From: a bacterium | Lineage (GTDB): Bacteria > Patescibacteriota > Minisyncoccia > Phycocordibacterales > UBA5272 | Length of the DNA: 64,000 nt | Assembly: GCA_023267535.1 (NCBI GenBank) | Contig: JAHFNC010000004.1 | Location: forward strand, 3,757-67,756 | Direction: 5' to 3' | Shown here: positions 937-26,401 of the stretch, piece by piece | How the letters are laid out: every line of letters starts with the position of its first letter | How positions within the stretch are numbered: position 1 is the first letter of the stretch | Program-made: the position numbers and the translations under genes | Notes under the pieces: model-generated | Databases searched by the model: none | What the model saw: only the letters and a program-made list of their open reading frames with translations | Told to the model about the DNA's origin: nothing

Positions 937-1176
937 ATACCACACTTTTTAAAGAAAAACGGTGCCTGTCCCCAATTCCAAATAGGTGTTTTAGGGATTA
1001 AGGATAGCACTAGTGTTGGAGATGTAGATATACGAAATTACGCGAAGTATATTTTGAGAGATGGGAAAGATATAGAAAAAAGAGAGTTGCTAGGATGTCT
1101 AAAAAGTAAAATTTTGCTATCAGATAAAAAGATCTACATAAGCGAAATTGAGTTAGTCCCAGTTAATCAAAAGTGA
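937..1176 (+). pseudogene. start-less 80-codon ORF immediately upstream of hsdM (possible gene remnant or non-ATG start)
   Basis: Open frame from the stop at 934-936 to TGA at 1174-1176 with no in-frame ATG or GTG; only an internal TTG; ends 7 nt before hsdM. Confidence 0.2.
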
Positions 1177-1183
1177 TATAATT

Positions 1184-2650
1184 ATGAGTAAATTTATGTT
1201 TGAACAAACTTTTAAGAATATAGACGACATCTTACATAAAGATGCAGGATGCGGAAGTGAGCTTGATTATGTTGAACAAACCTCATGGGTACTATTTTTG
1301 AAGTACCTCGATGATTTAGAGAAAGACAAGAAAACAGCGGCTGAACTTGCAGGAAAAAAGTACACCAACATCATATCTACTGAATACAGTTGGACTACGT
1401 GGGCTACACCAAAAGGTAAAGACGGAAAACTTGATCATCATAAAGCCTTAACTGGAGATGATTTAAAAGACTTTGTTGATCTTAAACTTTTTCCTTATCT
1501 TAAGAAATTTAAAACCACAGCTTTAAGTCCAGATACTATTGAATACAAGATTGGTGAGATTTTTTCTGAATTAAAAAATAGAATTCATAGTGGATATAAC
1601 TTACGTGAAGTTATTAATCGTATAGACGAGCTTCGTTTTCGTACTCATGCAGAAAAGCATGAAATGAGCCACTTGTATGAATCTAAAATACAGAACATGG
1701 GGAATGCTGGTCGTAATGGTGGTGAGTACTATACTCCAAGACCACTTATTACTACTATTGTTAAAGTGGTAGCTCCAAAAATTGGAGACACTATTTATGA
1801 TGGTGCAGTAGGTAGTGCAGGATTCTTATGTGAAGCTTTTGATTACCTAAAGAAGAGTAAAAACCTTACAACGAAAGATGTAGAAATTTTACAAAAGAAA
1901 ACTTTTTATGGAAAGGAAAAGAAATCATTAGCATATATTATCGGTACAATGAATATGATTTTACACGGTGTAGAAGCTCCTAATATTATCCATACCAACA
2001 CTCTTGCTGAAAATCTTGCAGATATACAAGAAAAAGATCGTTATAATGTTGTGTTGGCAAACCCACCATTTGGAGGAAAAGAACGAGTAGAGGTACAGCA
2101 GAACTTTCCAATTAAAACAGGAGAAACTGCTTCTCTTTTCTTACAACACTTTATTAAGATATTAAAAGCAGGAGGTAAAGGCGGTGTGGTTATAAAAAAT
2201 ACATTTCTTAGTAATACAGATAACGCTACGGTTAGTTTAAGAAAGTTACTTCTTGAGAATTGTAACCTACATACAGTATTAGACTTACCTGCTGGAACTT
2301 TTACAGGTGCCGGTGTCAAAACAGTCGTACTCTTTTTTGAAAAAGGGTCCTCTACGAAAAAAGTATGGTTCTATCAACTTAACTTAGACAGAAATCTCGG
2401 TAAAACAAATTCACTTAGCGAGAAAGATTTAGAAGATTTTATTAAACTTCAAAAGAATAAAGCAGAAAGTGAAAACTCTTGGAGTATAGATATAAAAAAC
2501 ATAGACCAAAAGACTTTTGATTTAAGTGCAAAGAACCCTAACAAAAAAGAAGAGGTTGCTTTGCGTTCCCCAGAAGAGATTTTGAAAGAGATGAAAGCTT
2601 TAGATAAGGAGAGTGAAAAGATATTAAGCGGTATTATTAAATTGATATGA
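1184..2650 (+). CDS. hsdM: Type I restriction-modification system, DNA methyltransferase subunit M
   Basis: 488 aa; N6-adenine MTase motif IV NPPFGG, motif I-like GSAGFL; HsdM-type N-terminal domain; first gene of M-X-S-R operon. Confidence 0.9.
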   Translation: MSKFMFEQTFKNIDDILHKDAGCGSELDYVEQTSWVLFLKYLDDLEKDKKTAAELAGKKYTNIISTEYSWTTWATPKGKDGKLDHHKALTGDDLKDFVDLKLFPYLKKFKTTALSPDTIEYKIGEIFSELKNRIHSGYNLREVINRIDELRFRTHAEKHEMSHLYESKIQNMGNAGRNGGEYYTPRPLITTIVKVVAPKIGDTIYDGAVGSAGFLCEAFDYLKKSKNLTTKDVEILQKKTFYGKEKKSLAYIIGTMNMILHGVEAPNIIHTNTLAENLADIQEKDRYNVVLANPPFGGKERVEVQQNFPIKTGETASLFLQHFIKILKAGGKGGVVIKNTFLSNTDNATVSLRKLLLENCNLHTVLDLPAGTFTGAGVKTVVLFFEKGSSTKKVWFYQLNLDRNLGKTNSLSEKDLEDFIKLQKNKAESENSWSIDIKNIDQKTFDLSAKNPNKKEEVALRSPEEILKEMKALDKESEKILSGIIKLI

Positions 2651-3714
2651 ATGAAAAAAAAGAAGTAAAACATATTTTTATAGATTCGAATATTTTTTTA
2701 GATTTTTATAGATTAGGGAAAGAAGATTTAGAGAAACTTAATCAGTTGATTGACTTTGTTAAAAATGGTGATATTAAAATATATTTAACAAAACAGGTCT
2801 ACGATGAATTTTACAGACACAGAGAAGACACCTTTCAAAAAACATACAAAGGTTTTTTAGACTCAAAAACTGATATTCAGATGAATTCTATTTTTAAGAA
2901 TTATCCAGAATATAAAAAGATTACTCTTTTGAAAAAAGCTTTAGAGAAACTTAAGTCTGACTTAGGTCAAAAAGTAGAAAGTGACATGAGTTCAAAAAGT
3001 TTAATTGCGGATGAGGTTGTGAGAAAAATATTTGAAGCCTCTTTTTATATTGATTCGGATAAGTTTTTAGAAATGGCGATTATAAGACACAGACTTGGAA
3101 ATCCACCAGGTAAAAAAAATACTAGTTATGGAGATGAAATCAACTGGGAAACATTACTAAGTGTGGTTCCTGACGGAGAAAAACTAATAATAGTTAGTAA
3201 CGATGGAGATTACGAAAGTCCAATGTCAGAAAGAAAAATCAACGGCTATTTGGAAGCTGAATGGGATAAAAAAAAGAAATCAAAAATCTATTTATACAAG
3301 TCCCTAAGTTCATTTTTTAGAGAACACAACATTGCTATTGAGTTTGAAATTGAACAAGATAAAAGTTTACTTGTAGAAAATTTGATAAACAGTGGTAGTT
3401 TTATGGTAACTCACGAAGTTATAAGAAGGCTTTCAAAGTATAATTCATTTTCAGACGACCAAATAAAAGGTCTTGCTACAGCTTTACTAGGTAACTCGCA
3501 AGTACGGTCAATTATAGAAGATGATGATGTTAGAACTTTTTATAAAATAAACTTACTGTCTAGGTCTGATATTTTTGACGATGAAATGTGGAGTGAGATA
3601 GAGTCTCTTATTATAGTTAACCCAGTTCAGGTTAATAAAGATATTGAGGATATTATTAAAAGTCTTGATGATAAAATTGATGAAGATATCAATGTGGACG
3701 ACATTCCATTTTAA
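2647..3714 (+). CDS. Hypothetical protein with N-terminal PIN-like nuclease fold, embedded in type I RM operon
   Basis: 355 aa; start ATG overlaps hsdM stop (ATGA, 2647-2650); ends 3 nt before hsdS; N-terminal IFIDSNIFLDFY (PIN strand-1 Asp) and later IIVSNDGDY (PIN C-terminal acidic motif); acidic C-terminal tail. Confidence 0.6.
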   Translation: MNEKKEVKHIFIDSNIFLDFYRLGKEDLEKLNQLIDFVKNGDIKIYLTKQVYDEFYRHREDTFQKTYKGFLDSKTDIQMNSIFKNYPEYKKITLLKKALEKLKSDLGQKVESDMSSKSLIADEVVRKIFEASFYIDSDKFLEMAIIRHRLGNPPGKKNTSYGDEINWETLLSVVPDGEKLIIVSNDGDYESPMSERKINGYLEAEWDKKKKSKIYLYKSLSSFFREHNIAIEFEIEQDKSLLVENLINSGSFMVTHEVIRRLSKYNSFSDDQIKGLATALLGNSQVRSIIEDDDVRTFYKINLLSRSDIFDDEMWSEIESLIIVNPVQVNKDIEDIIKSLDDKIDEDINVDDIPF

Positions 3715-3717
3715 TTT

Positions 3718-4839
3718 ATGAAAAAAGAAAACTGGGAAATAAAAAGTTTTGAAGAATGTCTTGAAAAAGTTGTTTATACAAACAAAATTCAAAGAAAAGA
3801 TTTTCTTGATAATGGAAAGCATCCAGTAATTTCACAAGAGAAAGATTTTGTTAATGGGTACTGGGATAATTCTAAAGATTTATTTAAGGTTAGAAAACCA
3901 GTTATAATTTTTGGTGATCATACACAAGTCTTAAAATATGTAGATTTTGATTTTGTTCTTGGTGCTGATGGTGTAAAAATACTTCAGCCTACAAGTGAGC
4001 TAGAACCAAGATTTTTTTACTATTATTTACAAAACATAAATATTGGTAGTTTAGGATACGCAAGACATTACAGATTATTAAAAGAGAGTGAAGTAGAATT
4101 TCCAAAGTCTCTTTTAGAACAGCAACGCATAGTGTCAGTTTTAGATAAAGCATTCGTTGATATATCTAAAGCAAAAGATATTGCTGAACAGAATCTTAAA
4201 AATGCAAAAGAACTTTTTGAAAGTTATTTACAGAGTATGTTTACAAATAAAGGAGATGATTGGGAAGAGAAAACATTAGGCGGTATTGCTTTTGTAAAAA
4301 GTGGAGGAACTCCTTCAAGGTCTAAAAAAGAATACTGGACAGGTAAAATAGCTTGGTATTCGTCGGGTGAATTAAATAATTTGTACACCACAACGCCAGA
4401 AAGATATATTAACGATTTAGCAATTAGTAACTCAAATGCAAAAATCTTTCCAAAAGGTTCTCTTTTAATAGGTATGTATGATACTGCGGCTCTAAAAATG
4501 TCTATATTAGACAGAGACGGTTCTTTTAATCAAGCTATTGCAGGTGTAAAACCTAATGACAAAATTGACTTAACTTTTATTTTACACTCTATCAACTCTA
4601 TCAAACCAGAATTACTTAATTTAAGACGTGGTGTTCGTCAGAAAAATCTAAGTCTTGAAAAGATAAAAAGTATCCCTACCTATGTTCCTCCACTTCAAGT
4701 ACAGAAGAATGTTGTTTCTAAATTAGGAGAACTTTCCACTGAAACAAAAAAACTTGAAGCAATCTATGAACAAAAATTAAATGACTTAGAAGAACTTAAG
4801 AAAAGTATTCTTCAAAAGGTATTTAACGGCGAACTATAA
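3718..4839 (+). CDS. hsdS: Type I restriction-modification system, specificity subunit S
   Basis: 373 aa; two target-recognition-domain repeats with conserved central and C-terminal coiled-coil spacer regions typical of HsdS. Confidence 0.85.
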   Translation: MKKENWEIKSFEECLEKVVYTNKIQRKDFLDNGKHPVISQEKDFVNGYWDNSKDLFKVRKPVIIFGDHTQVLKYVDFDFVLGADGVKILQPTSELEPRFFYYYLQNINIGSLGYARHYRLLKESEVEFPKSLLEQQRIVSVLDKAFVDISKAKDIAEQNLKNAKELFESYLQSMFTNKGDDWEEKTLGGIAFVKSGGTPSRSKKEYWTGKIAWYSSGELNNLYTTTPERYINDLAISNSNAKIFPKGSLLIGMYDTAALKMSILDRDGSFNQAIAGVKPNDKIDLTFILHSINSIKPELLNLRRGVRQKNLSLEKIKSIPTYVPPLQVQKNVVSKLGELSTETKKLEAIYEQKLNDLEELKKSILQKVFNGEL

Positions 4840-4860
4840 AAGTGCTATAATGTCAAGATT

Positions 4861-7182
4861 ATGAACGAATCTGAAACAAGGGCAGAGCTAATTGATCCAA
4901 AGCTAAAAGCTTGTGGTTGGGGTGTTGTTGAAGGATCTAAAATACTCCGTGAATACAATATTACTGCTGGTAAAATCCAAACTGGAGGTATAAGAGGAAA
5001 GCTACTTACTGCTGATTATGTATTGGTCTACAAAGGCATAAAATTGGCTGTGGTTGAGGCAAAGAGTGCAAATATAGGAGTTGGTGAGGGTGTTGCACAA
5101 GCCAAGCAATATGCAGAGAAACTAAAAATAGAAACAACCTATTCTACAAACGGAAAAGAGATATACAGTATCTGTATGAAAACTGGTGTTGAGGGTTTGG
5201 TTTCTGGTTATCTCTCACCTGATGAACTTTGGAACAAAACTTTTTCGGTTCAAAATGAATGGAGAGAGAAATTTAGTTCTATTCCTTTTGAAGATAAGAG
5301 TGGCTCTTGGCAATTACGTTATTATCAAGAAATAGCAGTAAAGAATGTTCTTGAATATGTTGCAAATGATAGGGACCGCATTTTGCTCACCTTAGCTACT
5401 GGTACAGGTAAAACAGCTATCGCTTTTCAGATAGTATGGAAACTATTTCAGACAAGATGGAATTTAAAACGTGACGGTTCTCGTCGTCCTCGTATTTTAT
5501 TTTTAGCAGATAGAAACATATTAGCCGACCAAGCATACAACTCTTTTTCTTCATTTCCAGAAGATGCTTTGGTGCGTATTAATCCTAAAGAAATAAGTAA
5601 GAAAGGAAGTGTGCCTACTAATGGGTCTATTTTCTTTACTATCTTTCAAACCTTTATGAGTGGTAAAGATGCCGAGGGAAACCCTGCACCATACTTCGGA
5701 GAATATCCATCTGATTACTTTGATTTTATTATTATAGACGAATGTCATCGTGGCGGTGCAAACGATGAAGGAAACTGGAGAGGTATCTTGGAATATTTTT
5801 CTCCTGCTGTGCAATTAGGTTTAACAGCTACCCCAAAGCGTAAAGATAATGTCGATACATATAAATATTTTGGTGAGCCAGTATATATTTATTCTCTTAA
5901 AGAGGGTATTAATGATGGATTTCTTACACCTTTTAAGGTTAAGCGTATTAAGACAACATTAGACGATTATATTTATACAAGTGATGACCAAATCATCGAA
6001 GGGGAAATCGAGGAAGGAAAACTTTATACCGAACCTGATTTTAATAAGATAATTGAAATTAAAGCGAGAGAAGAAAAGCGTGTGAAGGTATTTATGGACG
6101 AAGCAAATCAAAATGAAAAAGCTATTGTCTTTTGTGCTACTCAAGATCATGCGGCTGCGGTTCGTGATTTAATTAATCAATACAAGAAAAGTGCTGATCC
6201 AAATTATTGTGTCCGTGTTACAGCAAATGATGGAGAGATAGGCGAACAATTTTTAAGAGAATTCCAAGATAACGAAAAAACTATACCAACTATTTTAACG
6301 ACATCACAGAAACTTTCAACTGGAGTAGATGCTAGAAATATACGTAACATTGTACTCATGCGACCAGTGAACTCTATGATTGAATTTAAGCAAATTGTAG
6401 GGCGTGGTACACGTTTATTTGATGGTAAGGAATTCTTTACTATTTATGACTTTGTGGATGCTTATCACCATTTTGCGGATCCTGAATGGGATGGAGAACC
6501 GATCAGTCCAGTAGATGATGAACCTACGGAACCTAAACCACCAAAAGGGGTAGAGGGTGAACCACCTTTTCCTCCAGAACCACCAACAGAACCAAATAAG
6601 AAACTTAAGATTAAATTACGAGATGGAAAAGAACGTGAAATACAACACATGATAGCAACTTCTTTTTGGGGTGCAGACGGTAAACCTATTTCTGTGGAAG
6701 AGTTTTTACAAAACCTGTTTGGGACACTGCCTAGTCTTTTTAAGGGTGAAGAAGAGTTGCGAGAGATATGGAGTAATCCAATAACAAGAAAAAGTTTGTT
6801 AGAAAAACTAGACGAGGCTGGGTATGGAAAAGACGAACTAACTACATTACAGAAATTAATTGACGCTGAAAATAGTGATCTTTTTGATGTGTTGGAATAT
6901 GTATTTAATAGTGACGTTAAACCGATACCAAGAGAGATAAGAGTAGAAACATCACAGGAAACTATTTTTGAATCCCTTAATGATAAACAAAAAGAATTTA
7001 TTGAATTTGTGTTGAGTAAATATATTGAAACAGGTGTAGAAGAATTAGACCAAGAGAAACTACCAATACTTCTTACTAATAAATATCAGTCGCTAGAAGA
7101 TGCAAAAGATACACTAGGTGATATTGATTTGATTCGTTCGATTTTCTTCAAATTCCAAGAGAAACTATACGCAAAAGTATAA
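4861..7182 (+). CDS. hsdR: Type I restriction enzyme, endonuclease/helicase subunit R (compact form)
   Basis: 773 aa; canonical HsdR N-terminus MNESETRAELIDPKLKACGWG; PD-(D/E)xK-like ADYVLV..VVEAKS; SF2 motif I ATGTGKT, motif II IIIDECHRG; Pro-rich linker then C-terminal helical domain. Confidence 0.9.
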   Translation: MNESETRAELIDPKLKACGWGVVEGSKILREYNITAGKIQTGGIRGKLLTADYVLVYKGIKLAVVEAKSANIGVGEGVAQAKQYAEKLKIETTYSTNGKEIYSICMKTGVEGLVSGYLSPDELWNKTFSVQNEWREKFSSIPFEDKSGSWQLRYYQEIAVKNVLEYVANDRDRILLTLATGTGKTAIAFQIVWKLFQTRWNLKRDGSRRPRILFLADRNILADQAYNSFSSFPEDALVRINPKEISKKGSVPTNGSIFFTIFQTFMSGKDAEGNPAPYFGEYPSDYFDFIIIDECHRGGANDEGNWRGILEYFSPAVQLGLTATPKRKDNVDTYKYFGEPVYIYSLKEGINDGFLTPFKVKRIKTTLDDYIYTSDDQIIEGEIEEGKLYTEPDFNKIIEIKAREEKRVKVFMDEANQNEKAIVFCATQDHAAAVRDLINQYKKSADPNYCVRVTANDGEIGEQFLREFQDNEKTIPTILTTSQKLSTGVDARNIRNIVLMRPVNSMIEFKQIVGRGTRLFDGKEFFTIYDFVDAYHHFADPEWDGEPISPVDDEPTEPKPPKGVEGEPPFPPEPPTEPNKKLKIKLRDGKEREIQHMIATSFWGADGKPISVEEFLQNLFGTLPSLFKGEEELREIWSNPITRKSLLEKLDEAGYGKDELTTLQKLIDAENSDLFDVLEYVFNSDVKPIPREIRVETSQETIFESLNDKQKEFIEFVLSKYIETGVEELDQEKLPILLTNKYQSLEDAKDTLGDIDLIRSIFFKFQEKLYAKV

Positions 7183-7200: not shown

Positions 7201-9744
7201 TTAGATCATTCTTTTCTTTATGTTTCGTACAAGATCAGTGATTTCTTTCTTTGCAATATCAGGGATTTTAAATATAGAAACATCAGTTTTTAATAACCAT
7301 TCGGCACATTCCTTTCTATCATAATCCATACTTTCAATGTGGTTAGAAATTTCAATGGCTGTATGTCTACTTAGTCCGAGATTGATAAGAGAAACTTGGG
7401 TCCTTTCAAATACCCCAAACTCGAGCCACATATTTAAATCAGGGACGGAATCAAGAAACTCAGGGTGATTCATACTAAGATAATACTTTAAAATATCAAT
7501 ATAACATGAAGAATACTTTGCAAATTTAAACCTAACATATTCTTCTATATCCCCCATTGTGTTTCTGATAATTAGTGAAAGCTTTTTCTTGGGATCTCTA
7601 TTCTCCCAGTACCTAATATTAGACTTTATTATTCTAGCAAGTGGATATCCTCTCATCCAATTAGTTACTAGAATGGTGTAGTAAGGTGCGAGCGCTTCGT
7701 GGTCCCCAGAAAGAATTCTACTTATTCTTTTTATAATTGCTATGTAGCAATTAGACGCATCTAAATCGTCAGGTAAAACAGGAATTAGGTTTTTTATGTC
7801 ATCATCATAATTTACAAAATAATCAAAGAGTTTTTGTTGAGATATGGGGTTTATACCGGGATTTCTAAAAATTATATCATCTGGTATTTGAAGTGACTCT
7901 TTTACTTTTGAACACTCTACCTCAAGTTCATTAATGAAATCTTCGTCAAGAGGTTCATTTTTTAAGGAAGAGTTTTTAAGGAATTTTGTGAAATAATAAC
8001 TAAAAGCATATTCATGGTTAGAGCTAGAAGTTTCTTTAAAGTTACCTCTTATGTATTCAAGAAGATCAGTTTTATTTTCTGAAGCTTCAGTGATTGCTCT
8101 CTTAATAAAGTGCTTTGTTTTTTCTCTGATAGGTATATTATCCCAATCTTCAGGATCAATACATATAATATTTCCTTGAAATTCCTTTTTTAGGCGACCA
8201 GCTCGACCAGCGAGATTCCAAAAATCAGCTCCTGACATCGGTACTTTATTTCCTCTTTTTGGTTTTCTTATAAAAATTGATTTTGCTGGAAGGTTAACTC
8301 CTTCGAGAAGGGTTGAAGTACATACTAAGTATTTAATATGACCCTCAGAATATAATCTTTCAATTTCTTTTCTAATAACAAGTGGCATGTTGCCGTAATG
8401 AAAAGCAATCTTTCTTTCTAGAACTTTAGCTAAAGCATATTCTGGATGAATTAATTTCTTTATTAAATCAATCAATTCATTTATTTGATCATCTTCTGTT
8501 TCCTCTTTAGTTCCGACAAGATCAAAAAGTTTTTCTGAAGCATCTTCAGCATCTGCTTGTCCATTTACATATATCATGTTGCCACCTTCATTTGAACCAA
8601 GTAAGTAGCAAAAAGTAGACAGTTTTTCTTTTTCGTTTAAAGTTTGATTTAAGTTAATTTGCCCCAGTGGAGTAGATATATTTTTTAGACATAGGTTTAC
8701 GCTCCACTGCTTAGGGTGCCCCACTAATTGTGATACCCAAATTAAATTTTGATTTACGGCAATATATTCAGTAACTATAGTAGACCTATCTTCCTGGTTA
8801 CCTAAGCCATCCAGTAGAACCCCAGGGTTTTGAGAGAATGGACTACAGAATAGTATTTTTATGGCTGGTAGTCGAGTTGTAAGCTCTTCAATTTTTTGTT
8901 GTAAAAGAATACCTCTACCACCATCTCCAATTTTTTGAGCTTCGTCAATGACAAGAAAATCAATCTTAAAAGTGGGATTGTCACTTAGAAACCAATGTAA
9001 TCTTTCTTGCGTAAATATAAATAGAGATGGTTTGTTTAAGTCCATTTCATCAGGTGACTGAGGTACAGAACTTAGGTAAACAGAATAGTCTTCCTTATTA
9101 AACAATTGATCAGAAAAATCTTGCTCTACTTGATTGATAAGTGCTCTGGTAGGGACTATGTAGACAATATTTTTTGGATTCTTTTTGTCGTTTAGTTGCT
9201 CTAAAACAAAAGTATTTAGAATAAATGATTTTCCAGAAGAGGTTGGAGCAGAAGCACTTAAATAGTTTGAACTGTATGCTTTATCGTAAAAGTCTTTTTG
9301 AAATTTATTAAGATATATTGGCTCTTCATTTGTTTTTGTAAAAATGATATGTTCCACATCTCTTCTTGCATTTTCAATTTTAAAAGGTAACGGTATATCA
9401 TTATCGTAATCTGAAGGTAGATATTTCTTATGGATAGCAAGATTAATAGCTGGTTTGTTTGTTAACTTATGCAAAATGATAGATGCTCCAATTCTTTGGT
9501 TCTTCTTTGTTTCTGCATCTGTTAAACAACACTGGGCAATCCTTAATGCTGCATCTTGACAATCTGGGTTATCTGAATGTGATATTATACTTGCACACAT
9601 TAATAAATGATCCCAGTTTGGTATGTAAAATAAGTCAGATTGTTGATTTAAAATTGGGAAAAGTTTTATTACCGAATTTCTAATAATAGATAATAGGTCT
9701 TGTTGAAAGCTTTTTAAGTTATAAACTTTTTCAGGAAGGGTCAT
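7201..9744 (-). CDS. Ski2-like SF2 DEAD/DEAH-box helicase, Hachiman HamB-like candidate
   Basis: 847 aa; Walker A APTSSGKS, motif II VIDEAQ, motif V LLEGVNLPA, motif VI WNLAGRAGR; 14-nt overlap with upstream nuclease-like gene. Confidence 0.75.
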   Translation of the reverse strand: MTLPEKVYNLKSFQQDLLSIIRNSVIKLFPILNQQSDLFYIPNWDHLLMCASIISHSDNPDCQDAALRIAQCCLTDAETKKNQRIGASIILHKLTNKPAINLAIHKKYLPSDYDNDIPLPFKIENARRDVEHIIFTKTNEEPIYLNKFQKDFYDKAYSSNYLSASAPTSSGKSFILNTFVLEQLNDKKNPKNIVYIVPTRALINQVEQDFSDQLFNKEDYSVYLSSVPQSPDEMDLNKPSLFIFTQERLHWFLSDNPTFKIDFLVIDEAQKIGDGGRGILLQQKIEELTTRLPAIKILFCSPFSQNPGVLLDGLGNQEDRSTIVTEYIAVNQNLIWVSQLVGHPKQWSVNLCLKNISTPLGQINLNQTLNEKEKLSTFCYLLGSNEGGNMIYVNGQADAEDASEKLFDLVGTKEETEDDQINELIDLIKKLIHPEYALAKVLERKIAFHYGNMPLVIRKEIERLYSEGHIKYLVCTSTLLEGVNLPAKSIFIRKPKRGNKVPMSGADFWNLAGRAGRLKKEFQGNIICIDPEDWDNIPIREKTKHFIKRAITEASENKTDLLEYIRGNFKETSSSNHEYAFSYYFTKFLKNSSLKNEPLDEDFINELEVECSKVKESLQIPDDIIFRNPGINPISQQKLFDYFVNYDDDIKNLIPVLPDDLDASNCYIAIIKRISRILSGDHEALAPYYTILVTNWMRGYPLARIIKSNIRYWENRDPKKKLSLIIRNTMGDIEEYVRFKFAKYSSCYIDILKYYLSMNHPEFLDSVPDLNMWLEFGVFERTQVSLINLGLSRHTAIEISNHIESMDYDRKECAEWLLKTDVSIFKIPDIAKKEITDLVRNIKKRMI

Positions 9745-10714
9745 AGGTTATCCCAAGTGCCTCCAAGAAGTGCTTTCTAAACTCTTCCACAGAAGGAAAT
9801 GGAAGCAGAAAAACATGTATATCAAAAGTTTCAAGATTTGTATGTTTTGAAATATGTTTGACAACATTTTTTGACCAACCTTCTATTTCTTTGTTAATCT
9901 TTTCTTTTATTTGTTCAGTGGTTTCTGTGTTTGCAACGCTTGGGTATTTATCATAATCAAATCCAATGAGGCACACACCTTTATACCTTACCTGATTATG
10001 GAGAGGGTCGTCTTTGTCCAAATATTTTAATAGAGCAACTTCCAATCTCTCATCTATTACACTCAAGTTGTCCCTCATTAATTGTAAGTCTCTTTCTGCT
10101 GGAGCAGATATTCCTCCATCTGATAAAAGAAACTCTTTAAGACTTATGAAACATTTAGAGATGCCATCGTTTAAATCTTTGTACAGTTTTGATTCACCCC
10201 AATATAAAGATAGAATATCCCTTCCTTCTTCATTTAACTCCACAGAAACATGAATACCATCAGCTCCGTTCACATGGAGTTCTGGGTTTGTTTTTAATGG
10301 CATCTTACATAGTAGTTGGGGAATTTTTAGATACTCCTGAATAAGAATATAGAGAAGCATTTCACCACCTTCACCTGTCTTCTTTAGTGAAGTAAAAAGA
10401 CTTTTTGCTTTTTCAATAAGCTCGTAAGTTTTTGTGGTTGTGTTATGTTTTGTATCATATTCTTTTGCCACCTCATATTCTTTTCTTGGAATTGCATAAT
10501 CAGCTACATGCTTTGCCACAAAACGTGCAAAGTCCTTAGTGCGAGGTCTACCATTTCCGTCTAAAGTTAAAAAGTAACAATGTGAGGTTGCTTTAGTATC
10601 TTTTAAATTAACATTTGATATAACTTCAGTTATATAAGTATTTATTTCTTGTTTGCTTGTTCTCAGAAGATCAGCAATAAGTTCTGCAATATTATCTTGG
10701 TTAGCAGTAGTCAT
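9731..10714 (-). CDS. PD-(D/E)xK nuclease-like protein, Hachiman HamA (DUF1837)-like candidate
   Basis: 327 aa; candidate catalytic residues GADGIHV ... VEL ... LYWGESK (D...E.K arrangement); immediately upstream of and overlapping the SF2 helicase gene in hamA-hamB order. Confidence 0.55.
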   Translation of the reverse strand: MTTANQDNIAELIADLLRTSKQEINTYITEVISNVNLKDTKATSHCYFLTLDGNGRPRTKDFARFVAKHVADYAIPRKEYEVAKEYDTKHNTTTKTYELIEKAKSLFTSLKKTGEGGEMLLYILIQEYLKIPQLLCKMPLKTNPELHVNGADGIHVSVELNEEGRDILSLYWGESKLYKDLNDGISKCFISLKEFLLSDGGISAPAERDLQLMRDNLSVIDERLEVALLKYLDKDDPLHNQVRYKGVCLIGFDYDKYPSVANTETTEQIKEKINKEIEGWSKNVVKHISKHTNLETFDIHVFLLPFPSVEEFRKHFLEALGITYDPS

Positions 10715-10720
10715 ATTTTA

Positions 10721-11200
10721 TTAATTTAAGAATCTACTTATTGGTTCGTTGAGCAGCGATTCAGCAATTTCTATCAGAATATTATCTCTAAAGCTTTGAA
10801 AATCTTTAGCTCCATGGAAGGTGTTGCATCGTATTTGATATATACACTTCATAATATTCGTTACATCCTTTATATCAATAAGTAAAATACCCTCTAAGTT
10901 ATTTTTTGTGGGTCTCATATCCCTAATAGGTGTCTCCTTTTTTAAATCTTCTAATCTTTCTAAATATTTGGGAGAAGACCAGGTTTCTATAAAAATATTT
11001 TTTAGAATATTATCATTATTATAAAACCAGTTTAATTTATGACTGTCTGTGATATTTGCTGCATTACTTCGGAAAGACTCGTCTGTAATGTACGCGTCAA
11101 AAATCATCCAATAAATAATGAATCGAATCCATGCATCAGCTGTATTTTCATCGGCTTTCCTTTTCCATGTTCTAAGTCTTTCTATAAATTCAGGGTCCAT
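10721..11200 (-). CDS. Small HEPN-like protein (R-x4-H motif) upstream of Hachiman-like pair
   Basis: 159 aa; IYQIRCNTFHGAK contains R-x4-HG as in HEPN RNase motifs; all-helical composition; 6 nt upstream of the nuclease-like gene. Confidence 0.45.
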   Translation of the reverse strand: MDPEFIERLRTWKRKADENTADAWIRFIIYWMIFDAYITDESFRSNAANITDSHKLNWFYNNDNILKNIFIETWSSPKYLERLEDLKKETPIRDMRPTKNNLEGILLIDIKDVTNIMKCIYQIRCNTFHGAKDFQSFRDNILIEIAESLLNEPISRFLN

Positions 11201-11261
11201 ATACTCATTTTAGCATAAAACAATAAATCTTTCATTTACGCAAGAGTGATGACTTAAAAAT

Positions 11262-11291
11262 CTAAAAAGCACCCGAAAGGGTGCTTTTTAG
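11262..11291. terminator. Bidirectional rho-independent terminator (ends the tRNA transcript)
   Basis: Hairpin gcaccc-gaaa-gggtgc at 11269-11284 flanked by A-run (5') and T-run (3'). Confidence 0.7.
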
Positions 11292-11382
11292 ATTTGGCTG
11301 GCTACACTCAGTAGCTATGCAGTAACTGTATAGAGCTCTCATACGTTTCGACGCTCTCCGAGCGCCAGAACTGCGCTCGCAT

Positions 11383-11456
11383 TGGCTGGGGTACATGGAC
11401 TCGAACCACGATACTCAGGACCAAAACCTGATGTCCTACCATTAGACGATACCCCA
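11383..11456 (-). tRNA. tRNA-Gln (anticodon UUG), CCA encoded
   Basis: Manual cloverleaf: acceptor TGGGGTA/TACCCCA 7 bp; D-stem GTCT/GGAC; anticodon stem TCAGG/CCTGA with loop TTTTGGT (anticodon TTG at positions 34-36 of the loop); T-stem CGTGG/CCATG with T-loop TTCGAGT; discriminator G then CCA. Confidence 0.85.
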
Positions 11457-11886: not shown

Positions 11887-12011
11887 CAAACATTTTTTAA
11901 GAAAATATCAATATTTACACTTATTAAAAATAAATATAAAATGGCAATCAGTTTGTGTTAACGGGGGATGTTCTTTTATTTTTTTTGAATCAGGAGTGGA
12001 GGGAGATAATA

Positions 12012-13034
12012 ATGAACAAGCAAGCTGTGCTCTCTATTGTTCCAAATATTCCAAACGCTGAAGACGAAGATCCTGGCGTCGCCCTATTAATATCGGCCGA
12101 CCAGCTTCTTTTTGATCCAAATCAACCAAGAAAGAGATACACGAAAAAAGGTCTTGAGAAATTGGCTAAAAGCATTCAAGACCAAGGTTTGCAACAGCCG
12201 GTGGTCGTTACCTTTGCTTATCGTAAGAAAGGCATAGATTACTATTACATCAAGTTCGGCGAAAGGCGTTATCGCGCTCATATTTTGCTTGGCTACAAAA
12301 ACGTTCCTTGTCTTGTGAAGAAGGGGACCTACGACGGCAAGCTTGATGTGGAACGAGTGCTTGCGCAGACTTCGGAAAATAATTTGCGCGAACCACATTC
12401 GCACAGCGAGATGATTAACGTCCTTCGTTTGGTCGTTGAAGACGAACGAGAAAAGTCTGATGGCGTGATTGGCTACATCGGCAAAGCTCAAGAAAGATTT
12501 GCCACAGCTCTTGGCTATACCGCTGAGGCCACCAGAAGGTATCACGTTTTGGCTAATCTTCATTCGGAGTTAGTTGAGATGTTGGATATTGAAGACGAAG
12601 AAGAAGGGGACGAACGAGAAAAGCTTAACTTCAGCGTTGCTCTTTCTTTGGCTAGAGCACCAAAAGATGCTCAGCTTGGGATTCTTGAAAGGTCAAAGCC
12701 TCACTTTGAAAAGTCTCACAATCACGGCATTGCTTTTGTTTCTGAACAAGCAAGGTCTGTTCGCGAGAGTCGTGGTGAAAAGATAGTCGGCAGGAAGCCG
12801 AGCGAATCAATTGACCTTGTCAGGAAATTTCTAACCTTCACCAACAATCGCCACGATTTGGTCTTTGGGCAAATGAAGCCAGCTGAGATAAAAGCCATTT
12901 TGGCTTCGGCGAGCGTGACCACCGTTGATGTTTTGCTTAACGCAGTCATTATGGCCGCAACAAACCTGAAATCACTTCAGGCACTGATTCAAGAAAGGAG
13001 AGATTACAATTATAGAGAATTCAGAAAGAAATAA
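12012..13034 (+). CDS. ParB-like nuclease (ParB/Srx) domain protein
   Basis: About 340 aa from ATG at 12012 (GGAGTGGAGGGAG upstream); ParB N-domain motifs GLQQPVVV and FGERRYRA; local GC about 45-50%, clearly above neighbouring DNA. Confidence 0.7.
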   Translation: MNKQAVLSIVPNIPNAEDEDPGVALLISADQLLFDPNQPRKRYTKKGLEKLAKSIQDQGLQQPVVVTFAYRKKGIDYYYIKFGERRYRAHILLGYKNVPCLVKKGTYDGKLDVERVLAQTSENNLREPHSHSEMINVLRLVVEDEREKSDGVIGYIGKAQERFATALGYTAEATRRYHVLANLHSELVEMLDIEDEEEGDEREKLNFSVALSLARAPKDAQLGILERSKPHFEKSHNHGIAFVSEQARSVRESRGEKIVGRKPSESIDLVRKFLTFTNNRHDLVFGQMKPAEIKAILASASVTTVDVLLNAVIMAATNLKSLQALIQERRDYNYREFRKK

Positions 13035-14474: not shown

Positions 14475-15056
14475 ATGAAAATAAAAGGAGAAATATCATT
14501 GAAAGGAATTATACAAGGAACAGCTATTGGTCTTACTTTGGTCTTGGCCGTGCTCTACGCAGCTCAAGACGAAGGATTGGTAAATTTTAACTTACCAGAG
14601 AAAACAGCAAACACGATTGGCACTTATTATAAAGTTACCAGAGTGATTGATGGTGACACCATTGAAGTAAAAATGAACAGTGGTTTAGAAAAAGTGAGAT
14701 TGATTGGAATAAACACGCCGGAAATTGTTGACCCACGCAAACCAGTGGAATGTTTTGCAAAGGAAGCTAGTAACAGAATGCATTCTTTGGCTAGCGGACA
14801 AAATGTGAAGCTTGAATTTGATGATTCGCAAAGTTATCGTGATATTTACAATCGACTTTTGGCTTATGTTTATTTGCAAGATGGGGAAATGTTGAATAGA
14901 AAAATGATTGCCGAAGGTTATGCTTATGAATATACCTATATGGCTCCTTACAAATATCAAAAAGAATTTCGCGACCTGCAAACTTTTGTACAAGGAAGCG
15001 AGAGGGGACTTTGGGCCAAAGATACTTGTAACGGCAGTAAAGAGTTTCCAAAATAA
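14475..15056 (+). CDS. Thermonuclease (staphylococcal nuclease, SNase-like), membrane-anchored/secreted
   Basis: 193 aa; N-terminal TM/signal anchor; SNase motifs RVIDGDTIEV and VRLIGINTPE. Confidence 0.85.
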   Translation: MKIKGEISLKGIIQGTAIGLTLVLAVLYAAQDEGLVNFNLPEKTANTIGTYYKVTRVIDGDTIEVKMNSGLEKVRLIGINTPEIVDPRKPVECFAKEASNRMHSLASGQNVKLEFDDSQSYRDIYNRLLAYVYLQDGEMLNRKMIAEGYAYEYTYMAPYKYQKEFRDLQTFVQGSERGLWAKDTCNGSKEFPK

Positions 15057-16712: not shown

Positions 16713-17765
16713 ATGTTAATGACTTTTTTAATTATTTTGGGAATTATTATCTGTGCGCTTTTGGGAATGATTCTAATGCGTCAGAACGATGCTAAAGACG
16801 TAAAAGAAGATGACCAAACATTTTTAATTCTCCAAGATCAGTTAGAAAAATTACGAAATGCTGTAGAAAACAAATTAGAGCGTTCACAATCAGAGCTGCA
16901 TCAAGTTCTTCATCGTCAGGATTCAGAATCAAAACGTCTCATCACCGAAATCACCAAAGAATTAACCGAAGTGAAAGAAGGGAACAAGCAAGTTTTTTCA
17001 ATGACTGAGCAATTACAAAATCTTGAGAAAATTTTAACCCATCAAAAGCAACGTGGGAATTTAGGCGAAGCATCACTTGAACTTATTCTTTCAAATATGA
17101 TGTCTCCTGGGCAATACGAAATGCAATACAGATTTAAGACCGGTGAAGTTGTAGACGCTGTCATTCATACTAAAGACGGCATCATACCAGTGGATGCTAA
17201 GTATTCACTTGATAATTATCAGAGATTAATGAACGCTACCGACGAAGAAGAGACTGCTTATTATCAAAATGAATTCAAAAAAGATATTCAAAAGCGAATT
17301 GACGAGACTTCAAAATACATAAAGCCAGATGAAGGCACACTACCTTTTGCTTTTATGTTTATTCCAGCTGAGGGAATCTATTATGACCTACTTGTGAATC
17401 AAGTTTCCAAAGGTGCAATCAACACGCAAAATTTAATTGAGTATGCTTATAATAAAAGAAAAGTGATTATTGTTTCGCCGACAACTTTCTACGCATATTT
17501 GCAATCAGTGCTTTTTGGGTTCAAAGCTTTTCAGATTGAAGAGAGCGCCAAAGGTATACAAAAGAAAGTGGAGGACCTAGGAAAGCATTTAGCTGTTTAC
17601 GAAGATTACATGAAGAAGTTAGGTAATACATTAGGAACGACAGTTAATCATTACAATACCGCATACAAAGAATTAAAAAAAGTTGATAAAGATGTACTAA
17701 AAATAACTGGCGAAGAAATCGGATTGGAAGTTTTAACATTGGATAAACCAGACATTGAAGAATAG
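16713..17765 (+). CDS. rmuC: DNA recombination protein RmuC family
   Basis: 350 aa; N-terminal TM then long coiled coil, C-terminal RmuC-type domain. Confidence 0.6.
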   Translation: MLMTFLIILGIIICALLGMILMRQNDAKDVKEDDQTFLILQDQLEKLRNAVENKLERSQSELHQVLHRQDSESKRLITEITKELTEVKEGNKQVFSMTEQLQNLEKILTHQKQRGNLGEASLELILSNMMSPGQYEMQYRFKTGEVVDAVIHTKDGIIPVDAKYSLDNYQRLMNATDEEETAYYQNEFKKDIQKRIDETSKYIKPDEGTLPFAFMFIPAEGIYYDLLVNQVSKGAINTQNLIEYAYNKRKVIIVSPTTFYAYLQSVLFGFKAFQIEESAKGIQKKVEDLGKHLAVYEDYMKKLGNTLGTTVNHYNTAYKELKKVDKDVLKITGEEIGLEVLTLDKPDIEE

Positions 17766-24514: not shown

Positions 24515-26401
24515 ATGACTGTAAGTGAAATTAGAGCAAAATTTTTATCATATATGGAAATGAAGGGGCACAAAGTTGTCTTTTCTTCGTCATTAAAACC
24601 AGAGAATGACCCAACCACACTCTTTACTGGCTCCGGAATGCAACCAATGCTTCCATATTTGCTTGGTCAGCCTCACGAATTGGGAAAAAGGATCGCTGAT
24701 TCGCAAAAATGTTTTCGTTCACAAGATATAGATGATGTTGGAGATAACCGCCACACCACTTTCTTTGAAATGCTTGGAAATTGGTCATTTGGTGATTATT
24801 TTAAGGGAGAAGAAATCGTCTGGATGTTTAATTTTTTAATTGGTGAACTTCACCTTGACCCAAAAAACTTCTACGTAACTTGTTTCAAAGGAAATTCTAA
24901 TTTAAATATTCCAAGAGATGATGTATCGGCTGACTTGTGGAAAAAAACTTTCAAACAAAAAGGATTAGATGTAAAAGTTGGAGAGAATCCAGAAGTTGAT
25001 GGAATAAAAGAAGGAGAACATATTTTCTATTATGACGAGAGAAAAAATTGGTGGTCTCGTTCTGGAATTCCAAAGAATATGCCAGAAGGTGAGCCTGGGG
25101 GGCCAGATTCTGAAATGTTTTATGACTTTGATTCTGATTTATCAAAAAAGATTCACGCTAATTCAAAATTTAAAGATAGTGTTTGTCATGTGAACTGTGA
25201 TTGTGGAAGATTTTTGGAAATTGGAAACAATGTTTTTATGGAATACAAGAAAGTTGGAAATGGCTTTGAAGAATTGCCACAGAAAAATGTTGACCACGGC
25301 TCTGGACTAGAAAGACATGCTTGTGCTGTAAATAATGACGAAGATATTTTTAATATCGATGTATTTAATGAAGCAAAAAATACTATAGAAAGATTATCTG
25401 GTAAAAAATATCGCGATGATGAAAAAGTAACTTATGCTTATCGTGTAATTCTTGATCATCTTCGTGCCGGAACATTTTTAATTGGAGATGATGTTTTACC
25501 AGGGAATAAAGATCAGTCATATTTCGTGCGCCGACTTATTCGTCGTTCAGTGAGATTCGCCAGAAATTTAGGAATTGATAAAAATTTTACAAAATCAATC
25601 GCGCTTTCATTTATTGAAGTTTATAAAGACGAATATAAAAATCTAAACGAAAAGAAAGAAATCATTTTATTTGAAATGGAAAAAGAAGAGACTAAATTTA
25701 GAGCCACTCTTGAAAAAGGAATAAAAGAATTCGAGAAAATCGGTAGTAGAGACATTTCAGGACACAATGCATTTGATTTACTTCAATCTTACGGATTTCC
25801 AATTGAACTTACAATTGAACTAGCAAAAGAAAGAGGTTTAAATGTTGATTTAGTTGGATTTGAAGAAGAAAAGAAAAAGCATTCTGAAAGTTCTCGCACT
25901 GCTTCCGCTGGAAAGTTTAAAGGAGGACTAGGAGGAGACGGAGAAATAGAAACAAAATATCATACAGCTACACACTTATTACACGAAGCATTACGCCAAG
26001 TACTTGGAGAACACGTGGAACAAAAAGGTTCAAACATCACATCCGAAAGATTACGTTTTGATTTTTCTCATAATGAAAAAATGACAGACGAAGAAAAGAA
26101 AAAAGTTGAAGATTTGGTAAACGAAAAAATAAATGAAGCATTGCCAGTGAAAAGAGAAGAGATTAAGAAAGATGAGGCCATAAGTAGAGGCGCAATTGGA
26201 CTTTTCGGTGATAAATATGGCGACGTGGTTACGGTTTATAGAATCGGAACTGGCGAAAAAAGAGGGGATACAAATTTGTTTTCAATGGAATTATGTGGTG
26301 GTCCTCATGTTGCCAACACCAAAGAACTTGGTCACTTTAAAATAGTAAAAGAAGAAGCAGTCTCTGCCGGTGTTCGTCGAATAAAAGCGATTTTGTCTTA
26401 A
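24515..26401 (+). CDS. alaS: Alanyl-tRNA synthetase, short form lacking C-terminal C-Ala domain
   Basis: 628 aa; class II AlaRS N-terminus ...NDPTTLFTGSGMQP; editing-domain HTATHLLHEALRQVLG..H motif; ends after the editing domain. Confidence 0.85.
   Translation: MTVSEIRAKFLSYMEMKGHKVVFSSSLKPENDPTTLFTGSGMQPMLPYLLGQPHELGKRIADSQKCFRSQDIDDVGDNRHTTFFEMLGNWSFGDYFKGEEIVWMFNFLIGELHLDPKNFYVTCFKGNSNLNIPRDDVSADLWKKTFKQKGLDVKVGENPEVDGIKEGEHIFYYDERKNWWSRSGIPKNMPEGEPGGPDSEMFYDFDSDLSKKIHANSKFKDSVCHVNCDCGRFLEIGNNVFMEYKKVGNGFEELPQKNVDHGSGLERHACAVNNDEDIFNIDVFNEAKNTIERLSGKKYRDDEKVTYAYRVILDHLRAGTFLIGDDVLPGNKDQSYFVRRLIRRSVRFARNLGIDKNFTKSIALSFIEVYKDEYKNLNEKKEIILFEMEKEETKFRATLEKGIKEFEKIGSRDISGHNAFDLLQSYGFPIELTIELAKERGLNVDLVGFEEEKKKHSESSRTASAGKFKGGLGGDGEIETKYHTATHLLHEALRQVLGEHVEQKGSNITSERLRFDFSHNEKMTDEEKKKVEDLVNEKINEALPVKREEIKKDEAISRGAIGLFGDKYGDVVTVYRIGTGEKRGDTNLFSMELCGGPHVANTKELGHFKIVKEEAVSAGVRRIKAILS

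What the first reader, a model, noticed from the sequence alone, without database searches (positions are those of the whole stretch)
7201..11200. Three-gene HEPN-like + PD-(D/E)xK nuclease-like + Ski2-like helicase cluster (Hachiman-like with an extra HEPN gene)
Three co-oriented minus-strand genes are packed with a 6-nt gap and a 14-nt overlap. The first encodes a 159-aa protein with an R-x4-H motif (RCNTFHG) as found in HEPN RNases. The second encodes a 327-aa protein with a D...ExK arrangement (GADG...VEL...GESK). The third encodes an 847-aa SF2 helicase with complete motifs I, II, V and VI. A nuclease immediately followed by a COG1204-type helicase is the Hachiman (HamA-HamB) architecture. 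A tightly linked upstream HEPN protein is not part of canonical Hachiman, so this may be an undescribed three-component variant. The cluster lies convergent to the type I RM operon, separated from the hsdR stop by 18 nt.
Basis: partly seen in the sequence, partly recalled or inferred. Interest (0 to 1): 0.7.

Follow-up and report, generated by a model that had tools for sequence, protein, structure and literature searches.

The report
Hachiman defence pair plus stray HEPN gene
The two large genes are an ordinary two-gene Hachiman anti-phage system (HamA nuclease and HamB helicase), and the small gene in front of them is a free-standing HEPN-type putative RNase that in every other sampled genome sits beside unrelated genes, so there is no sign of a new three-part Hachiman system.

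Summary
Three co-oriented minus-strand ORFs of 159, 327 and 847 aa have the stated 6-nt gap, 14-nt overlap and motifs.

The 327-aa and 847-aa proteins are HamA and HamB, a canonical type I Hachiman. HamA hits Pfam HamA at 4e-63 and PADLOC HamA1 at 4e-121. HamB hits PADLOC HamB1 at 5e-285. The HamA catalytic residues are intact.

It is not a conserved Hachiman partner:
- None of 76 other distinct family members has HamA or HamB nearby. Their neighbours vary: type I, IIG and III RM genes, NERD, Mrr, HNH, recombinases and housekeeping genes.
- The four closest distinct HamAB loci (HamA 71-78% identical) lack it. Three of them carry a small HTH_17 gene in that slot.
- DNA homology to these relatives covers only hamAB.

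The locus is a decayed island next to tRNA-Gln in a Patescibacteria (CPR) chromosome, with a remnant of a serine recombinase gene. The best reading is a Hachiman pair and an independently acquired solo HEPN gene that are probably co-transcribed. Interest is low to moderate.

The parts
10721..11200 (-). p159: a 159-aa stand-alone HEPN-fold protein and putative RNase, with the motif R124-C-N-T-F-H129-G
9731..10714 (-). hamA: DUF1837 PD-(D/E)xK nuclease subunit of Hachiman, with catalytic residues intact
   Evidence: Pfam PF08878 at 4.1e-63. PADLOC HamA1 at 4.4e-121. 48% identity to B. cereus HamA. E115, E118, D152, E174 and K176 are invariant in 35 homologues. By position they match the residues D90, E93, D127, E147 and K149 that were essential when mutated in S. 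thermophilus HamA (PMC13064477).
7201..9744 (-). hamB: Ski2/Hel308-like SF2 helicase subunit of Hachiman
   Evidence: PADLOC HamB1 at 5.3e-285 over the full length. Pfam DEAD and Helicase_C. Among PDB sequences, 9wh1_B, the partner chain of a HamA entry, at 5.8e-62, plus 8vx9_B HamB and 8zue_B. Motifs I, II, V and VI are visible in the translation.
11207..11235 (-). Promoter-like site ATGAAA-17-TAAAAT with a TG extension. It ends 6 nt before the p159 ATG and is the only candidate promoter between the upstream hairpin and p159.
   Evidence: Consensus scan. The number of sites in the region is no higher than in shuffles, so this is a weak inference from position only.
11256..11295 (-). Perfect 17-bp hairpin followed by a U-run. 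It is probably the terminator of tRNA-Gln and insulates p159-hamAB from upstream transcription.
   Evidence: Sequence. RNA fold of 11201-11382(-) shows the 17-bp stem in both the MFE and centroid structures, z = -3.7.
11383..11456 (-). tRNA-Gln(UUG), the boundary and integration hot spot of the island
   Evidence: ARAGORN and Rfam tRNA at 58.8 bits. An 89% identical tRNA-Gln lies upstream of HTH_17-hamAB in L024 and L025, and a tRNA-Gln(CUG) lies upstream in L027.
973..1143 (+). 57-codon remnant of the C-terminus of a large serine recombinase, which marks the far end of the ancestral hamAB island
   Evidence: tblastn with the recombinases that follow hamB in relatives: L029 58.6% identity, E 4e-18; L027 E 2e-15; L024 E 1e-12.
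1184..7182 (+). Neighbouring type I RM operon (hsdM, PIN_12/PIN_8 gene, hsdS, EcoAI-family hsdR), lying between the recombinase remnant and hamB. It is island cargo and not part of Hachiman.
   Evidence: NCBIfam hsdM and restrict_EcoAI at 8e-239. Pfam Methylase_S, PIN_12 and PIN_8.

Best explanation
The locus holds two separate defence modules that share one short operon inside a decayed mobile island next to tRNA-Gln, in the chromosome of a Patescibacteria (CPR) bacterium.

Module 1 is a canonical two-gene type I Hachiman with a catalytically intact DUF1837 nuclease. From published work on other Hachiman systems, HamB (an SF2 helicase) and HamA (a PD-(D/E)xK nuclease) form a heterodimer. HamA alone is inactive. 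ATP binding and hydrolysis by HamB on DNA switch on HamA, which then degrades DNA and stops phage propagation, with an abortive phenotype at high multiplicity of infection. That this particular pair does the same is inferred from homology.

Module 2 is p159, a member of a large, unnamed family of stand-alone HEPN proteins of about 155 aa that is common in Patescibacteria and groundwater metagenomes. By analogy with other HEPN proteins, it most likely forms a homodimer whose two R-x4-H motifs make a composite metal-independent RNase site, and it acts as a latent toxin or abortive-infection effector that needs no fixed partner. This mechanism is inferred and not shown.

p159 was acquired independently of hamAB. 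It sits in the slot between tRNA-Gln and hamA that holds a small HTH_17 gene in three of the four closest distinct relatives. It is probably co-transcribed with hamAB because the gap is 6 nt, a terminator hairpin lies upstream, and no terminator lies between the genes. It is not an obligate or ancestral Hachiman subunit.
For: HamA and HamB identity. HamA catalytic residues are invariant and correspond to mutationally essential residues (PMC13064477). The class with an active DUF1837 domain is described in PMC11914072.

The HEPN fold and motif of p159.

p159 is not HamC: HamC is DUF3223 with an NTF2-like topology (PMC8565338), and p159 has no Pfam hit.

Non-conservation in the forward direction: profile searches for HamA and HamB over all ORFs of 110 loci found them only in the window's own population (L008-10) and in the HamA-seeded loci. 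The 109 immediate neighbours of 76 distinct family members include no Pfam family in more than 3 members (Eco57I 3, TspO 3, then N6_N4 MTase, Methylase_S, NERD, Mrr_cat, ResIII, HNH, Resolvase and Ymh at 2 each) and no HamA among the 25 most frequent families listed.

Non-conservation in the reverse direction: the four closest distinct HamAB loci (HamA 71-78% identical) have no p159. Three have an HTH_17 gene abutting hamA and a convergent serine recombinase.

Cassette boundary: blastn homology to these relatives runs only from window 10685 to 7241, which is inside hamA to near the end of hamB.

Island history: a shared tRNA-Gln neighbour and a recombinase remnant at 973-1143.

Operon structure.

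Precedent for lineage-specific accessory genes in front of hamAB that are dispensable for defence: the pezAT-hamAB and abiJ-hamAB loci (PMC13064477).
Against: The 6-nt spacing and the single upstream promoter-like site mean that p159 and hamAB are probably expressed together, which is how true subunits are usually arranged.

A second, very distant relative of the p159 family lies convergent to hamB, 93 nt away, in IMG/VR contigs L112-L115 (hhalign probability 94% over the C-terminal half only). Streptococcus Hachiman loci can carry abiJ, another HEPN gene. HEPN-Hachiman adjacency has therefore arisen more than once.

Many of the sampled p159-family contigs are short. Only 55-59 of 76 have at least 600 nt of flank on a given side.

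No activity of any of the three proteins has been tested.
Confidence: 0.72

Rival explanations
1. In this lineage p159 has been recruited as a working third component of Hachiman. It could be a second effector (an RNase) released when HamAB is triggered or inhibited, or a modulator of HamAB activity or toxicity. The operon would then act as one three-part system.
For: Tight operon structure. The arrangement is identical in contigs from three further samples. HEPN genes have independently landed next to Hachiman elsewhere (L112-115; abiJ in PMC13064477). Catalytically dead HamA proteins are known to recruit other effector domains (PMC11914072).
Against: HamA here keeps all its catalytic residues, so no replacement effector is needed. 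None of 76 other family members is near HamAB. None of the four closest distinct HamAB loci has p159. In plasmids, 32 records with an L112-type HamA and 30 records with the L112-type HEPN share no accession. In the one tested 'extended' Hachiman, the extra genes were not needed for defence.
Confidence: 0.12
2. p159 is functionally tied to the neighbouring type I RM system and not to Hachiman. It would be a PrrC-like back-up RNase, held inactive by the restriction complex and released when a phage anti-restriction protein disables that complex.
For: The most recurrent neighbours of the family are restriction systems. Within 4 kb of family members, type III Res helicases occur in 7 distinct groups, the N6_N4 methyltransferase in 4, and Eco57I-like type IIG enzymes in 5. 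A type I operon carries a family member at its end in L005. Many of these genes overlap or abut the HEPN gene. Anantharaman et al. 2013 describe at least 16 HEPN clades linked to R-M systems and propose this PrrC-type logic (PMC3710099). A type I RM operon lies 3.5 kb away in the same island.
Against: In the window, p159 is separated from the RM operon by hamAB and lies on the opposite strand. Many family members sit among housekeeping genes with no RM gene nearby (L019-L022). No single RM type is a consistent partner.
Confidence: 0.1
3. p159 is not an enzyme here. It would be a regulatory or structural protein that took over the role of the HTH_17 gene of related islands, for example control of hamAB expression or of island excision.
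For: It occupies the position of the HTH_17 gene of relatives. Upstream accessory genes can repress Hachiman expression, as pezAT does.
Against: The model has no DNA-binding fold. The best structural matches are HEPN RNase domains. The catalytic-type R, N and H residues are nearly invariant across the family, which argues for an enzyme. The recombinase is only a remnant, so there is no excision left to control.
Confidence: 0.05

Closest known systems
Hachiman type I (HamA DUF1837 nuclease + HamB SF2 helicase), subtype with a catalytically active DUF1837 domain ('I-A' in PMC11914072)
   Same: Full-length matches to the HamA and HamB profiles. hamA precedes hamB with overlapping genes. The PD-(D/E)xK residues and helicase motifs are intact. 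HamA is 48% identical to the Bacillus cereus prototype.
   Different: Nothing essential differs. The host is a Patescibacteria (CPR) bacterium, and the pair is preceded by an unrelated HEPN gene.
Hachiman type II (HamA, HamB, HamC = DUF3223)
   Same: A three-gene locus with a small extra gene next to hamAB (PMC8565338).
   Different: HamC is DUF3223 with an NTF2-like topology. p159 has no DUF3223 hit or any other Pfam hit, and its model is an all-alpha HEPN fold.
'Extended' Hachiman loci of Streptococcus (pezAT-hamAB, abiJ-hamAB; PMC13064477)
   Same: A lineage-restricted toxin-type gene sits just upstream of hamAB with a very short intergenic gap. AbiJ is itself a HEPN-family protein according to PMC3710099.
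   Different: The gene family is different, since p159 gives no AbiJ or other HEPN Pfam hit. The host phylum is also different, and no antitoxin gene is present. In Pez-Ham the extra genes were shown to repress expression, whereas nothing has been tested here.
R-M-linked solo HEPN proteins (Ymh, ApeA, AbiU2, AbiJ solos and others; Anantharaman et al. 2013, PMC3710099) and HEPN toxins of HEPN-MNT pairs
   Same: Small alpha-helical proteins with a conserved R-x4-H motif that occur in defence islands and often abut restriction genes.
   Different: p159 falls under no named Pfam HEPN family. Of 125 homologues, 20 hit Pfam MauJ (PF17419, best E 6e-9) and 3 hit HEPN_Apea weakly. No MNT nucleotidyltransferase gene is adjacent in the window.
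C-terminal region of Dazbog DzbB (PADLOC PDLC03836)
   Same: A weak local match over the HEPN-motif region: p159 E 1e-4, and 78 of 125 family members hit it, best E 2.9e-7.
   Different: The match covers only about 45 of 341 profile positions. No DzbA gene is present, and p159 is less than half the length of DzbB.

Membership tests
Hachiman type I | A HamA protein with the DUF1837/HamA domain | tested here: met
   Pfam PF08878 at 4.1e-63, 213.7 bits against a cut-off of 25. PADLOC HamA1 at 4.4e-121 over the full length.
Hachiman type I | A HamB SF2 (Ski2/Hel308-like) helicase encoded directly next to hamA | tested here: met
   PADLOC HamB1 at 5.3e-285 over residues 3-843. DEAD and Helicase_C domains. 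The two genes overlap by 14 nt.
Hachiman type I | Catalytic PD-(D/E)xK residues in DUF1837 (the active subtype) and ATPase motifs I and II in HamB | tested here: met
   E115, E118, D152, E174 and K176 are invariant in 35 homologues and match residues essential in S. thermophilus HamA. GKS and DEAQ are present in HamB.
Hachiman type I | Confers phage resistance that needs both genes | not testable with these tools
   This needs a phage challenge of a strain carrying the cloned operon.
Hachiman type II | The third gene encodes HamC (DUF3223) | tested here: not met
   p159 has no Pfam hit at E <= 1 and no HamC hit in PADLOC. The definition of HamC comes from PMC8565338.
   The four closest distinct HamAB loci lack it. 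None of 76 other distinct p159-family loci contains HamA or HamB. DNA homology to relatives stops inside hamA.
HEPN superfamily | A conserved R-x4-6-H motif | tested here: met
   R124-CNTF-H129. R124, N126 and H129 are kept in at least 90% of 125 homologues. RCNLFHG or close variants occur in most of the 160 proteins held at that point.
HEPN superfamily | An alpha-helical HEPN fold | tested here: met
HEPN superfamily | RNase activity that depends on the R and H residues | not testable with these tools
   This needs a biochemical assay or a toxicity test.
HEPN-MNT toxin-antitoxin pair | An adjacent minimal nucleotidyltransferase (MNT) antitoxin gene | tested here: not met
   Upstream of p159 lie a hairpin terminator and tRNA-Gln, and downstream lies hamA. 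No nucleotidyltransferase family is among the 25 most frequent Pfam families listed for the 109 neighbours of family members.
Dazbog (DzbA + DzbB) | A full-length DzbB together with a DzbA partner | tested here: not met
   Only a local match to DzbB profile positions 285-329 of 341, at E 1e-4, and no DzbA hit.

The most novel reading that the evidence does not exclude
In this Patescibacteria lineage the solo HEPN protein has been captured as a functional third arm of Hachiman. It would be co-expressed and act as an RNA-directed back-up or amplifier of the DNA-directed HamAB response. That would parallel the separate HEPN-Hachiman juxtapositions seen in gammaproteobacterial prophage-like contigs (L112-115) and in Streptococcus (abiJ).
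Probability: 0.12. Interest if true: 0.55.

Novelty: new member of a known kind. Interest (0 to 1): 0.27.

Why it matters
The main value is negative. A locus that looks like a new three-component defence system turns out to be a standard Hachiman pair plus a hitch-hiking HEPN gene, and the same comparative test can be applied to similar candidates.

Two smaller points remain of interest:
- p159 belongs to a sizeable HEPN family (about 1000 clusters at 50% identity). The window's member matches no Pfam or NCBIfam model. The family is common in CPR bacteria and often abuts restriction enzymes, which makes it a reasonable candidate for a single-gene abortive-infection or toxin module.
- The locus shows how a tRNA-Gln-targeted Hachiman cassette carrying a serine recombinase decays and picks up other defence cargo in a reduced-genome bacterium.

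Tried and rejected
- **HamC identity for p159.** Rejected: HamC is DUF3223, and p159 has no Pfam hit.
- **Named HEPN Pfam or NCBIfam families for p159.** No hit. PHROGs gave only marginal hits at E 0.025-0.05.
- **PDB sequence search with the family profile.** Only chance-level hits.
- **BFVD viral fold search.** Nothing at E <= 0.001.
- **afdb50 fold search.** The library was not available.
- **tblastn of p159 against plasmids.** No match.
- **Locus scans with the 125-sequence alignment.** They were repeated with a 58-sequence alignment.
- **Search for att-type repeats of the tRNA 3' end or other long direct repeats bounding the island.** None found.
- **A conserved upstream partner (possible antitoxin) for the HEPN family.** Genes of 140-165 aa abut some members, but they are not homologous to each other or to p159.
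- **A general HEPN-Hachiman association through the L112-type HEPN.** Thirty plasmids carry that HEPN and 32 carry a related HamA, and no accession is shared.
- **HamA against PDB by sequence.** No phmmer hit. The profile gave only a weak hit to 9wh1_A, a HamA that lacks the catalytic residues at the aligned positions.
Full report
**1. Observation**

The ORF list shows three minus-strand ORFs at 10721..11200 (159 aa), 9731..10714 (327 aa) and 7201..9744 (847 aa). The first two are 6 nt apart and the last two overlap by 14 nt. The plus-strand hsdR ORF ends at 7182, 18 nt from the hamB stop codon.

The same three proteins, 100% identical and in the same order, are found on contigs from three other samples (L008-L010).

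**2. The two large genes**

The 327-aa protein matches Pfam HamA (PF08878) at 4.1e-63 and PADLOC HamA1 at 4.4e-121 over its full length. The 847-aa protein matches PADLOC HamB1 at 5.3e-285 and carries DEAD and Helicase_C domains.

HamA is 48% identical to the Bacillus cereus prototype. In an alignment of 35 homologues, E115, E118, D152, E174 and K176 are invariant. By position these correspond to D90, E93, D127, E147 and K149, whose mutation abolished defence in S. thermophilus HamA (PMC13064477). HamA therefore belongs to the class with an active DUF1837 nuclease. It differs from the inactive, domain-fused class described in PMC11914072 and represented by 9wh1_A.

HamB resembles solved HamB chains and Ski2/Hel308/Brr2 helicases.

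This is a canonical type I Hachiman. The published mechanism is that the HamAB heterodimer uses ATP-dependent activation by HamB to switch on HamA, which degrades DNA, with an abortive phenotype at high multiplicity of infection. It is transferred here by homology only.

**3. The small gene (p159)**

p159 has no Pfam or NCBIfam hit, and its only PADLOC hit is a weak local match to the C-terminus of DzbB (E 1e-4). It is not HamC, which is DUF3223 with an NTF2-like topology (PMC8565338).

A word-index search found only 10 homologues besides the protein itself. An exhaustive HMMER search of 1.84 billion cluster representatives found 1007 clusters at E <= 1e-3 and 209 at E <= 1e-10. Nearly all are stand-alone proteins of 150-170 aa.

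The motif Y-Q-[IV]-R-C-N-[LT]-F-H-G dominates the family. Y121, R124, C125, N126, H129, G130 and K132 are kept in at least 90% of 125 aligned members.

Within the wider family, 20 of 125 members hit Pfam MauJ (best E 6e-9), 3 hit HEPN_Apea weakly, and 78 hit the DzbB C-terminus weakly.

**4. Is p159 a Hachiman component?**

*Forward test.* I gathered loci for p159 relatives from exact-protein look-ups, GTDB genomes, JGI metagenomes (314 relatives, of which 80 loci were kept) and IMG/VR. Profile searches for HamA and HamB over all ORFs of 110 loci found them only in the window's own population and in the loci I had seeded with HamA.

The family has no fixed neighbour. The 109 genes that abut 76 distinct members include no Pfam family in more than three members. 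They include Eco57I-type, type I and type III restriction-modification genes, NERD, Mrr, HNH, resolvases and TspO. Counting genes within 4 kb, the recurrent clusters are:
- type III Res helicases, in 7 groups;
- HTH-Panacea proteins, in 6 groups;
- Eco57I-like type IIG enzymes, in 5 groups;
- N6_N4 methyltransferases, in 4 groups;
- Vsr, in 4 groups.

In several Patescibacteria genomes the gene sits among housekeeping genes.

*Reverse test.* The four closest distinct HamAB loci (HamA 71-78% identical) have no p159. Three of them carry a 62-66-aa HTH_17 gene abutting hamA and a convergent large serine recombinase after hamB.

*Boundary test.* Nucleotide homology to these relatives runs only from window 10685 to 7241, that is from inside hamA to near the end of hamB.

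**5. History of the locus**

tRNA-Gln(UUG) lies at 11383-11456(-). An 89% identical tRNA-Gln precedes HTH_17-hamAB in L024 and L025, and a tRNA-Gln(CUG) precedes it in L027.

At window 973-1143(+) there is a 57-codon remnant of the C-terminus of the same serine recombinase (58.6% identity, E 4e-18). The 6-kb type I RM operon lies between this remnant and hamB. That operon includes a PIN_12/PIN_8 gene between hsdM and hsdS.

The window thus holds a decayed, immobilised version of a cassette with the order tRNA-Gln, small gene, hamA, hamB and a convergent recombinase. In the window the small-gene slot is filled by p159.

A perfect 17-bp hairpin with a U-run (11256-11295) follows the tRNA. The only promoter-like site between it and p159 ends 6 nt before the ATG. 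From this I infer that p159, hamA and hamB form one transcript.

Housekeeping genes in the window and DnaK identities of 82-87% to Pacebacteria/Parcubacteria MAGs place the host in the Patescibacteria. This fits the phyletic bias of the p159 family.

**6. A complication followed up**

In IMG/VR contigs L112-L115 (HamA 41-43% identical), a 152-aa ORF lies convergent to hamB, 93 nt after its end. It carries RRVRNNLFHGGK and matches the p159 profile over the C-terminal half (hhalign probability 93.9%). HEPN-Hachiman adjacency has therefore arisen at least twice, or three times if the Streptococcus abiJ-hamAB loci are counted.

That 152-aa family also lives on 5-kb enterobacterial plasmids and in Rhizobium plasmids. 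None of the 30 plasmids that carry it is among the 32 plasmids that carry a related HamA. The adjacency is sporadic, as expected for genes that both accumulate in defence islands.

**7. Verdict**

The cluster is a standard type I Hachiman pair together with an independently acquired, probably co-transcribed, stand-alone HEPN gene.

The most likely function of p159 is a latent dimeric HEPN RNase that acts as its own toxin or abortive-infection module. This is inferred from fold, motif and family behaviour, and from the general analysis of R-M-linked HEPN proteins in PMC3710099.

Three rivals cannot be excluded computationally and receive low probabilities:
- functional recruitment by Hachiman (0.12);
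- coupling to the neighbouring type I RM system in the manner of PrrC (0.10);
- a purely regulatory role (0.05).

The novelty level is a new member of a known kind, and interest is low to moderate.

Noticed in passing
window 973-1143 (+): A 57-codon remnant of the C-terminus of a large serine recombinase, homologous to the recombinase that follows hamB in related islands (58.6% identity, E 4e-18). The N-terminal ~380 codons are missing, so the island looks immobilised.
   Followed up: yes
window 2647-3714 (+): A 355-aa PIN_12/PIN_8 domain protein is encoded inside the type I RM operon, between hsdM and hsdS, with overlapping or abutting genes. This could be an RNase-type accessory of the RM system.
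   Followed up: partly
window 11383-11456 (-) and 11256-11295 (-): tRNA-Gln(UUG) is followed by a perfect 17-bp hairpin with a U-run. A tRNA-Gln also flanks the hamAB cassettes in relatives L024, L025 and L027, which suggests a shared integration hot spot. No att-like repeat was found in the window.
   Followed up: yes
window 11955-13034 (+): A 359-aa ParB_N-domain protein with a GTG start lies in a patch of 45% GC, against 31-36% around it. It sits just beyond the tRNA and may be separately acquired DNA. An SNase homologue (14475-15056) and RmuC (16713-17765) follow.
   Followed up: partly
L112:7598-8056 (-), also L113, L115 and a fragment in L114: A 152-aa protein with RRVRNNLFHGGK, a distant relative of the p159 family over the C-terminal half, lies convergent to hamB, 93 nt after its end, in IMG/VR contigs. 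The same family is found on 5-kb Citrobacter, Enterobacter and Klebsiella plasmids, next to another 157-aa hypothetical gene, and in four E. coli phages.
   Followed up: partly
L078:4138-6459 and L090:4293-6459: A recurrent cluster of an HTH_3-SocA/Panacea antitoxin-like gene, a 123-aa ORF, a 146-165-aa gene with no Pfam hit and a p159-like HEPN gene, downstream of a large ORF from the type III Res-like cluster. It may be a Panacea-type toxin-antitoxin arrangement that involves this HEPN family.
   Followed up: no
L001:8001-9549 (also L002-L004): A p159 homologue (47% identical) overlaps by 8 nt the start of a 364-aa NERD-domain protein, with a GmrSD gene about 600 nt further on. This is another tight pairing of the HEPN family with a nuclease-type gene.
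   Followed up: partly
L017:5902-6936 (+): In a Paceibacterota MAG the p159-like region lies in one 344-aa ORF with a C-terminal QueH (epoxyqueuosine reductase) domain. This is either a fusion or a read-through or assembly artefact.
   Followed up: no
L024, L025 and L027-L029, just upstream of hamA: Three of the four closest distinct HamAB loci carry a 62-66-aa HTH_17/MerR-type gene that overlaps or abuts the hamA start, paired with a convergent serine recombinase. It is probably an excisionase or regulator of the mobile cassette. L027 also has a Hypoth_Ymh (HEPN-family) gene beyond the recombinase.
   Followed up: partly
window 24515-26401 and 38885-40291; whole window: A short-form AlaRS (628 aa) and AspRS (468 aa), an anaerobic NrdD, and DnaK 82-87% identical to Pacebacteria/Parcubacteria MAGs indicate that the window is chromosomal DNA of a Patescibacteria (CPR) bacterium. 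Its defence island holds Hachiman, a type I RM system and the HEPN gene.
   Followed up: partly
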